From Octopus sinensis (taxonomy: Eukaryota), in the NCBI RefSeq assembly GCF_006345805.1, contig NC_043006.1, forward strand, positions 101,184,001-101,248,000: a stretch of DNA of 64,000 nucleotides, given 5' to 3'. This document shows, piece after piece, positions 10,408 to 10,975 of this stretch (positions are counted from its first letter, which is position 1; each line of letters begins with the position of its first letter). A program made the position numbers and the translations under genes. A model generated the notes under the pieces. That model was not told the origin of the DNA, did not search any database, and saw nothing but the letters and a program-made list of their open reading frames with translations.

Positions 10408-10975
10408 ATTCAAACATAAAAGAGATACCCAAAGAGTAGGATATCTAACTTGCTAGAAAGAGCAGTTAAAACTCCAAGCCACCAATTGTTGTAATTCCGA
10501 AAGTGATTGAAAAATAAAAAAACTTTTACTTAATCCTAGACCCTGCAAGGTTTCTGCAGACTTAAATACAGACTGAAATAAGATAATCTCAGTCTACATC
10601 TGGCGCTGCGTCCTCAGTAGGTTGCTAAGACTGAACACATAGACATGGAGCTATAAGTGATCGATACTGAAATTATTTTATTTCAATCTGTATTTAAGTC
10701 TGCAGAAACCTTGCAGGGTCTAGGATTAAGGTAAAAGTTTTTTTATTTTTCAATCACTTTCGGAATTACAACAATTGGTGGCTTGGAGTTTTAACTGCTC
10801 TTTCTAGCGAGTCAGATATCCTATTCTTCGGGTATCTCTTTTATGTTTGAATGTACACTGTATTATTCTCTGAATAATATATAGTCTATTGACTAATTTT
10901 TCCTTTCTTGCTACACCACTGGTAACTAAGAATTTTTCGATAAATATTCTTGCTACCCTAAGATTTTAATTAATG
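10408..10975 (+). mobile_element. Fold-back element in (TA)n: arm-spacer-arm-tail
   Basis: Arms ~10408-10593 and ~10666-10852 are near-perfect reverse complements; unpaired tail 10853-10975; TA tracts on both sides. Confidence 0.85.

What the first reader, a model, noticed from the sequence alone, without database searches (positions are those of the whole stretch)
10408..10975. Dissimilar fold-back element shares a motif and endpoint with the 44-47 kb array
Seen: the same topology, (TA)n-inverted arm-spacer-arm-unpaired tail-(TA)n. The sequences are otherwise dissimilar, yet both carry a similar motif: GTTTTAACTGCTCTTTCTAGCGAGTCAG (10788-10815) vs GTTTTTTAGCTGCTATTTCTAATGAGTTCAG (46906-46936). 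In both, the mirror arm stops ~50 nt downstream at CTTTTAT..AAT|GTA (10852 and 46978), followed by a 100-125-nt tail. Motif variants also occur on the minus strand at ~36590-36613 and ~40483-40503. Inference: a superfamily of non-coding elements with a conserved cis signal that fixes a cleavage, priming or RNA-end site, perhaps an unrecognised structured RNA. This is the best candidate in the window for an undescribed system.
Basis: partly seen in the sequence, partly recalled or inferred. Interest (0 to 1): 0.72.

Follow-up and report, generated by a model that had tools for sequence, protein, structure and literature searches.

The report
Retrozyme families sharing a 3' cassette
This fold-back is one copy of an abundant protein-less repeat that carries a hammerhead-ribozyme motif, and it and several dissimilar repeats in this genome share a predicted folded end piece whose two fixed end points likely mark where a borrowed Penelope-type enzyme starts copying the RNA into each cut DNA strand.

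Summary
The fold-back, the motif and the tail are real. The 'spacer' is not a spacer: it is part of a ~495-nt monomer and holds half of a canonical type I hammerhead on the minus strand, the only canonical one in the window. The 44-47 kb family also carries hammerheads. Both are non-LTR retrozymes with Penelope-type insertions in (TA)n. The 13-nt motif occurs 47,035 times genome-wide (control 316). It opens a shared 3' cassette with compensatory base changes: a long-range helix and two hairpins, each followed about 11-12 nt later by an end site. In the array family 40 of 41 fold-backs pair one short and one long end, and both arms descend from one template. This fits priming from both nicked strands at two internal sites, the known Penelope 'tail', here 97-125 nt instead of 30-40. 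No coding Penelope family examined carries the cassette. RNA and cleavage are untested. The scan has noted retrozymes with paired ends before, in this and other genomes; none of the 14 notes shown describes the shared cassette.

The parts
10390..10405 (.). (TA)n target, left flank
   Evidence: sequence
10408..10663 (-).
   Evidence: inner boundary approximate
10535..10621 (-). Complete canonical type I hammerhead: 4-bp stem I, CUGAGGA core at 10617-10611, long stem II, GAAA, stem III, predicted GUC cleavage between 10539 and 10538
   Evidence: only canonical hit in 64 kb, 0 in 30 shuffles; activity untested; Rfam gives no hammerhead hit
10454..10466 (-). Motif copy in the left arm
10666..10977 (+). 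Right arm: monomer from about position 188 to the long end site; holds only the 3' half of the hammerhead (to 10724)
10794..10806 (+). Conserved 13-nt motif that opens the 3' cassette
10804..10811 (+). 5' strand of the predicted long-range helix; partner 10907-10914 lies in the tail
   Evidence: 4 of 8 pairs with two-sided changes among 10 A-like sequences; coordinates
10814..10837 (+). Predicted hairpin H1, upstream of the short end site
   Evidence: 5 of 8 pairs with two-sided changes
10852..10852 (+). Short end site (inferred RT start 1), where the mirror arm stops
10853..10977 (+). 125-nt tail with the helix partner and predicted hairpin H2 (10921-10957); long end site (inferred RT start 2) at 10975-10977
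10976..10993 (.). (TA)n target, right flank
   Evidence: sequence
44278..47075 (.). Family B1 fold-back array of 544-nt monomers (about 2.7 units minus, 2.4 units plus), short end left, long end right
46736..46789 (+). Type I hammerhead fold with a U4C core (CCGAUGA); same motif called at 46197 (+), 45610 (-) and 44522 (-)
   Evidence: activity untested
46914..47075 (+). Family-B 3' cassette: motif 46914-46926, helix 46932-46941 with 47012-47021, H1 46942-46966, short site 46978, H2 47027-47059, long site 47075
   Evidence: (z -6.3)
36599..36610 (-). Lone motif match; no significant cassette
   Evidence: E 0.21-2.8
40492..40503 (-). Lone motif variant; no significant cassette
   Evidence: E 2.5

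Best explanation
The element is one insertion of a non-coding, hammerhead-bearing repeat (a non-LTR retrozyme) that was likely pasted into a TA run by the enzyme of a Penelope-like element starting from both cut DNA strands. Shown: tandem monomers, hammerhead motif, (TA)n flanks, two end sites, one of each per fold-back, arms nearly as alike as units of one arm, a shared 3' fold with compensatory changes. Inferred: the monomer is transcribed; a Penelope RT/GIY-YIG dimer binds the cassette, nicks both strands of (TA)n and starts one cDNA about 11-12 nt 3' of hairpin H1 and the other about 12 nt 3' of hairpin H2; both run upstream on the same template, repeatedly if it is a circle, and are joined through 1-4 nt of microhomology. 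The tail is the stretch between the two starts. The invariant motif is most likely part of the protein-binding site (untested).
For: Hammerheads with stem-I covariation across five families. 1,674 and 1,515 first-look candidates, head-to-tail arrays. 14 of 14 and 26 of 27 B fold-backs pair a short with a long end. Substitutions between opposite arms 0.34%, within an arm 0.32%, between loci 1.06% (B1; lower in 22 of 25 loci; B2 6 of 6). In the finding itself and in L129, L144 and L152 each arm holds sequence the other lacks. Microhomology at 25 of 41 junctions. 13-bp target duplication in L026, inserted outside TA. Coding Penelope-like families of the same genome show the same layout with 26-70-nt tails. 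An anole Penelope protein cuts and extends both strands of AT-rich DNA and starts at two internal RNA sites that define the tail (PMC11167929).
Against: No autonomous partner found: none of the coding families examined carries the motif or cassette at its 3' end. Tails are about three times the published 30-40 bp. Family-A short ends are scattered (10 of 16 at two sub-sites). 15 of 41 junctions are near-symmetric (5.3 expected), as snap-back would also give. For A-like sequences the antisense strand folds better in energy (-24.6 vs -17.1), though covariation is higher in sense; for B-like it is the reverse (-4.0 vs -15.7). Cross-recognition of A and B models is weak (16.6-21.8 bits). Arm likeness could partly come from gene conversion or assembly polishing. 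The youngest family (B1) has a non-canonical core.
Confidence: 0.75

Rival explanations
1. Same retrozymes and enzyme, but one cDNA starts at the long site and snaps back on itself; the short site is where the endonuclease resolves the hairpin, so the motif marks a DNA cleavage site.
For: Excess of near-symmetric junctions (15 of 41); arm likeness; PMC8557442 section 6 ascribes the tail to endonuclease-mediated resolution.
Against: The finding and L129, L144, L152 have arms that cannot be copies of one another; either arm can be the longer one; both sites are RT starts in vitro for the anole element.
Confidence: 0.12
2. The template is a long uncleaved tandem transcript, not a circle; the hammerhead is dispensable and the arrays are copied from donor arrays.
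For: Arms run through the predicted cleavage site, and few junctions lie at it (by eye). B1 has a U4C core yet the longest arrays (at least 17 units, L067). Hammerhead mutants still insert in vitro. Only 1 of 9 Xenopus retrozymes cleaved.
Against: Several long arrays differ by 0-0.1% between arms, simplest from one monomer read repeatedly; hammerhead stems are kept by covariation.
Confidence: 0.3
3. End sites are simply the first AT-rich single-stranded stretches able to pair with a (TA)n primer; the motif has another role (transcription, stability) or is a relic of common ancestry.
For: Both sites lie in AT-rich, TA-like sequence, and sub-sites 10-18 nt apart exist.
Against: It does not explain one-of-each pairing; other AT-rich stretches of the monomer are not used; L026 ends at the same short site outside a TA run.
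Confidence: 0.12
4. DNA-level fold-back transposon (MITE, Foldback or Helitron-like) or satellite that happens to hold ribozyme-like sequence.
For: Long inverted arms; tandem arrays.
Against: Variable inner truncation with fixed outer 3' ends, unequal ends, hammerheads in each family, a 13-bp duplication, same layout as coding Penelope-like elements.
Confidence: 0.03

Closest known systems
Metazoan non-LTR retrozymes (Cervera and de la Pena 2020, PMC7229834, passages read; Li, Clavereau and Pollet 2026, bioRxiv 10.64898/2026.07.22.740005, parts 1-3 of 5 read)
   Same: Dispersed, AT-rich, non-coding tandem units with a type I hammerhead; weak stem III with palindromic loop and a mismatch at the base of stem II in B-like families; proposed non-autonomous partners of Penelope-like elements.
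   Different: Units of ~495-560 nt are longer than the 170-400-nt RNAs of the 2020 paper (within the 51-972 bp of the preprint). The words 'inverted', 'microsatellite' and 'octopus' do not occur in the 2020 main text; the preprint parts read describe no end sites or 3' cassette and sampled no mollusc. Family A has an unusually long stem II. No pLTR homologue was found here.
Endonuclease-bearing Penelope-like elements: partial tandems, inverted 5'-truncated copy, one-sided tail, (TA)n bias; non-autonomous Chlamys such as MRC1 (Craig et al. 2021, PMC8557442, section 6 and passages read)
   Same: Insertion architecture and target.
   Different: No RT or GIY-YIG frame; tail 97-125 nt rather than 30-40 bp; no 3' similarity to the coding families tested.
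Anole Poseidon element PAc in vitro (Frangieh et al. 2024, PMC11167929, parts 1-2 of 4 read)
   Same: Two internal RT start sites defining the tail, both strands cut and extended, AT-rich target, hammerhead upstream.
   Different: There the starts lie in an AC-rich stem-loop within the ORF; here they lie in AT-rich sequence 3' of two hairpins in a non-coding RNA.

Membership tests
Non-LTR retrozyme | Dispersed head-to-tail non-coding units of a few hundred bases | tested here: met
   A ~495 nt, B 544-559 nt; no frame of 100 aa or more over the finding; two 108-118-codon frames in the B array were not tested against protein families
Non-LTR retrozyme | Type I hammerhead in the unit | tested here: met
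   Canonical core behind 14 of 37 A and 47 of 206 B motif hits, U4C core behind 104 of 206 B hits; misses include arms truncated before the ribozyme. Own descriptor; Rfam finds none
Non-LTR retrozyme | [quoted passage not shown] | tested here: inconclusive
   The finding has one complete hammerhead; B arrays have one in consecutive units, but B1 with a U4C core
Non-LTR retrozyme | Target duplication longer than 4 bp when visible | tested here: met
   13 bp in L026, the one case checked; not readable in (TA)n
Non-LTR retrozyme | Self-cleavage in vitro | not testable with these tools
   needs a transcription assay
Non-LTR retrozyme | Expression as linear and circular RNA | not testable with these tools
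   no RNA holder listed and only contigs offered
Autonomous Penelope-like element | RT plus GIY-YIG reading frame | tested here: not met
   none in the element
Non-autonomous partner of a Penelope-like element | Partial tandems with an inverted 5'-truncated copy | tested here: met
Non-autonomous partner of a Penelope-like element | One-sided tail between two end sites | tested here: met
   40 of 41 B fold-backs; length 97-125 nt, not 30-40
Non-autonomous partner of a Penelope-like element | (TA)n insertion bias | tested here: met
   flanks
Non-autonomous partner of a Penelope-like element | 3' end similar to the pLTR of a coding family | tested here: inconclusive
   Not found in the coding or decayed families sampled; the genome holds thousands more candidates and only top hits were scored

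The most novel reading that the evidence does not exclude
The motif-plus-two-hairpin cassette is a dedicated docking structure for a Penelope RT dimer, evolved in parasitic RNA circles and absent from the coding elements: each hairpin sets one subunit's start about one helical turn downstream, like a telomerase template boundary, so both DNA strands are primed on one circle. Tens of thousands of copies in at least six families give a natural covariation data set for how a telomerase-related RT selects its template.
Probability: 0.3. Interest if true: 0.72.

Novelty: new variant of a known kind. Interest (0 to 1): 0.45.

Why it matters
How Penelope-like RTs, the closest relatives of telomerase, pick their template and make tails and inversions is open (PMC8557442 and PMC11167929 say so). 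Retrozyme dependence on them rests on co-occurrence and pLTR similarity. These families add insertion-level evidence (strict end pairing, one template per insertion) and a 160-185-nt RNA with predicted structure that can be tested directly. The class itself is known, and the scan has met it repeatedly.

Tried and rejected
Rfam: no hammerhead or other relevant family at gathering or E<=10. Search for the autonomous partner: 30 loci of the window's Neptune-type family (8 longer stretches), one copy of a second family, 30 Hydra-like and 30 Nematis-like loci (4 and 2 loose matches, read as chance or neighbouring retrozymes), 20 decayed, 30 GIY-YIG-profile loci and 20 longer stretches: no motif at a coding 3' end. 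The coding element between B arms in L119 is a separate insertion with its own TA flanks. A motif-like 10-mer in the Nematis-like family sits at its short end, not 60 nt upstream. The motif as part of the hammerhead: rejected, the ribozyme lies ~70 nt (A) or ~125-135 nt (B, E, D/F) upstream. My first descriptor mishandled palindromic stem III and missed B; one search corrects it. The bins were offset by alignment slipping into TA; counts come. Motif versus hairpin as anchor of the short end could not be separated. Paper searches (listings only unless named) showed no paper on this cassette or on paired ends in retrozymes; subscription journals, Repbase/Dfam entries and the preprint's supplements were not visible and could hold these families.

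Full report
Observation. The fold-back at 10408-10852, its 125-nt tail and both TA flanks are in the sequence. The motif is shared with the 44-47 kb array, and nothing else aligns. It has 11 window hits against 0.68 expected. The window lies in a 2.72-Gb genome, G000. That it is an octopus is my guess from recalled repeat types; no call establishes it.

Both elements belong to large dispersed families. Family A (the finding) gave 1,674 first-look candidates, 40 scored; family B gave 1,515, 39 scored. A occurs as ~495-nt head-to-tail monomers, B as 544-559-nt monomers in arrays of up to at least 17 units. In the finding the left arm covers monomer positions ~116-370 and the right arm ~188-510, so the 'spacer' is simply the part of the monomer that only the left arm reaches.

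Hammerheads. A type I descriptor finds one canonical hammerhead in the 64-kb window, on the minus strand at 10621-10535, across the left arm and 'spacer'. It finds four U4C-core copies in the array and none in 30 shuffles. Over all fetched loci, a hammerhead precedes 14 of 37 A, 151 of 206 B (47 canonical, 104 U4C), 5 of 9 E and 6 of 36 D/F motif hits; misses include arms cut before the ribozyme. Stem I covaries across families. Rfam does not detect them. The predicted cut lies ~70 nt before the motif in A and ~125-135 nt in the others, so the ribozyme does not set the end points.

Superfamily and end sites. The 13-nt motif has 47,035 exact matches against 316 for the control. I fetched loci around most non-B hits among the first 100 listed. 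Of 75 distinct hits, 27 have a TA run 55-75 nt downstream, 20 at 150-190 nt, 6 elsewhere and 22 none within 260 nt; random positions give 3% and 4% for the two bins. The 22 include internal array units and about a dozen hits of other kinds. For family B, 15 of 21 best-hit arrays were fold-backs; 14 had both ends in view and all 14 paired a short with a long end. Among 40 insertions taken in chromosome order, 27 were fold-backs: 26 short plus long, one long plus long (L127); one of the 26 (L128) has only a 13-nt second arm. Either arm can carry the tail. With independent equal choice, 40 of 41 has probability about 2e-11 (arithmetic). The 13 single-armed insertions ended at the short site 8 times and the long site 5 times.

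A shared 3' fold. Twelve B-like and ten A-like real copies, picked by me from 29 clusters and neighbouring hits, were aligned separately. RNAalifold gave the same topology in both: a long helix from the motif's 3' side to the tail, hairpin H1 inside it, hairpin H2 after it. Pair counts: A 89% paired, 12 of 41 pairs with two-sided changes, 0 of 500 shuffles as high; B 92% paired, 4 of 26 pairs with two-sided changes (155 of 500 shuffles as high), 16 such cells (0 of 500). The structures were derived from these sequences, so the controls are lenient. Both end sites lie a median 11-12 nt after the base of a hairpin (33 short, 46 long ends). The A model ranks the five full B cassettes directly after A itself (16.6-21.8 bits, E 0.001-0.02); the B model ranks the two A arms first among non-B hits (E about 0.2). 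This is weak but reciprocal. Against: the A alignment folds better in antisense by energy.

One template, two primings. Substitutions between opposite arms equal those within an arm and are about a third of those between loci (B1 0.34, 0.32, 1.06%; 22 of 25 loci; B2 1.35, 1.61, 3.88%; 6 of 6). The finding's arms differ by 3.8% against a mean 6.7% to 26 other loci. In the finding, L129, L144 and L152 each arm holds sequence absent from the other, so neither is a snap-back copy. Junctions show 1-9 nt microhomology in 25 of 41, are blunt in 2 and have extra or unaligned bases in 14; 15 are near-symmetric against 5.3 expected. That excess is unexplained: both RTs may stop at one break in a shared RNA, or some events are snap-backs. 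L026, outside a TA run, has a 13-bp target duplication.

The enzyme. The genome holds young intact RT plus GIY-YIG elements. Their ends sit in (TA)n with two sites: tails of about 35, 30 and 26 nt in three Neptune-type families, 70 nt in a Hydra-like and 57 nt in a Nematis-like family (by eye; clade names from recalled motifs, no tree). Four of four fold-backs of the last family seen pair a long with a short end. None carries the motif or cassette, so the partner is unidentified.

Comparison. Craig et al. describe partial tandems, an inverted 5' copy, a one-sided 30-40-bp tail, (TA)n bias and non-autonomous head-to-tail derivatives (PMC8557442; section 6 and passages). Frangieh et al. show both strands cut and extended, two internal RT starts defining the tail, a predicted dimer, and no need for hammerhead cleavage in vitro (PMC11167929; parts 1-2 of 4). 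Non-LTR retrozymes are described in PMC7229834 (passages) and tied to Penelope-like elements in bioRxiv 10.64898/2026.07.22.740005 (parts 1-3 of 5). PMC4209133 (passages) notes Penelope hammerhead variants and opposite-strand pairs. PMC13282606 (passages) counts 31 recently active Penelope-like families in an octopus, without describing these units in the passages seen. Seven paper searches showed nothing on this cassette; their library is incomplete.

Verdict. The element works like a non-autonomous Penelope passenger and meets the testable retrozyme features. Retrozymes with paired ends were already noted by this scan (unchecked notes, not counted as support). What this finding adds is the shared motif-and-fold cassette with a long tail across dissimilar families. 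New variant of a known kind; interest 0.45.

Noticed in passing
window 10241-10389: A second, unrelated fold-back abuts the finding through the same TA run.
   Followed up: no
window 21900-25000, minus strand: Broken Neptune-type Penelope-like element (RT, zinc finger, GIY-YIG); the family has intact copies with a 479-aa and a 781-aa frame and a tail of about 35 nt.
   Followed up: partly
window 44-47 kb; L213; L333-L341; L231, L233, L235: The U4C hammerhead core recurs in retrozyme families B1 and D and, by eye, in two coding Penelope-like families, so it may be a tolerated natural variant.
   Followed up: partly
window near 1500-1570, minus strand: 3' end of the Nematis-like Penelope family with its long (57-nt tail) end.
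   Followed up: partly
window 58932-59996, minus strand; 43100-44200: A 354-aa frame that looks like a mariner-type transposase, and a decayed RT of LINE type just left of the array (labels recalled, not searched).
   Followed up: no
window 29047-29117: Weak Rfam tRNA match (36 bits), possibly a SINE head.
   Followed up: no
L158:4400-4900: An extra inverted arm follows the TA run directly after a complete fold-back of family B, perhaps a second insertion or a three-armed product.
   Followed up: no
L119:1262-9989 and L120: Two B2 arrays and at least two Penelope-like insertions piled into one TA-rich region; TA runs act as repeated landing sites.
   Followed up: partly
L180, L194, L197, L207, L166, L167: About a dozen motif hits among 75 have no TA-bounded cassette and seem to belong to older repeats of unresolved kind.
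   Followed up: no
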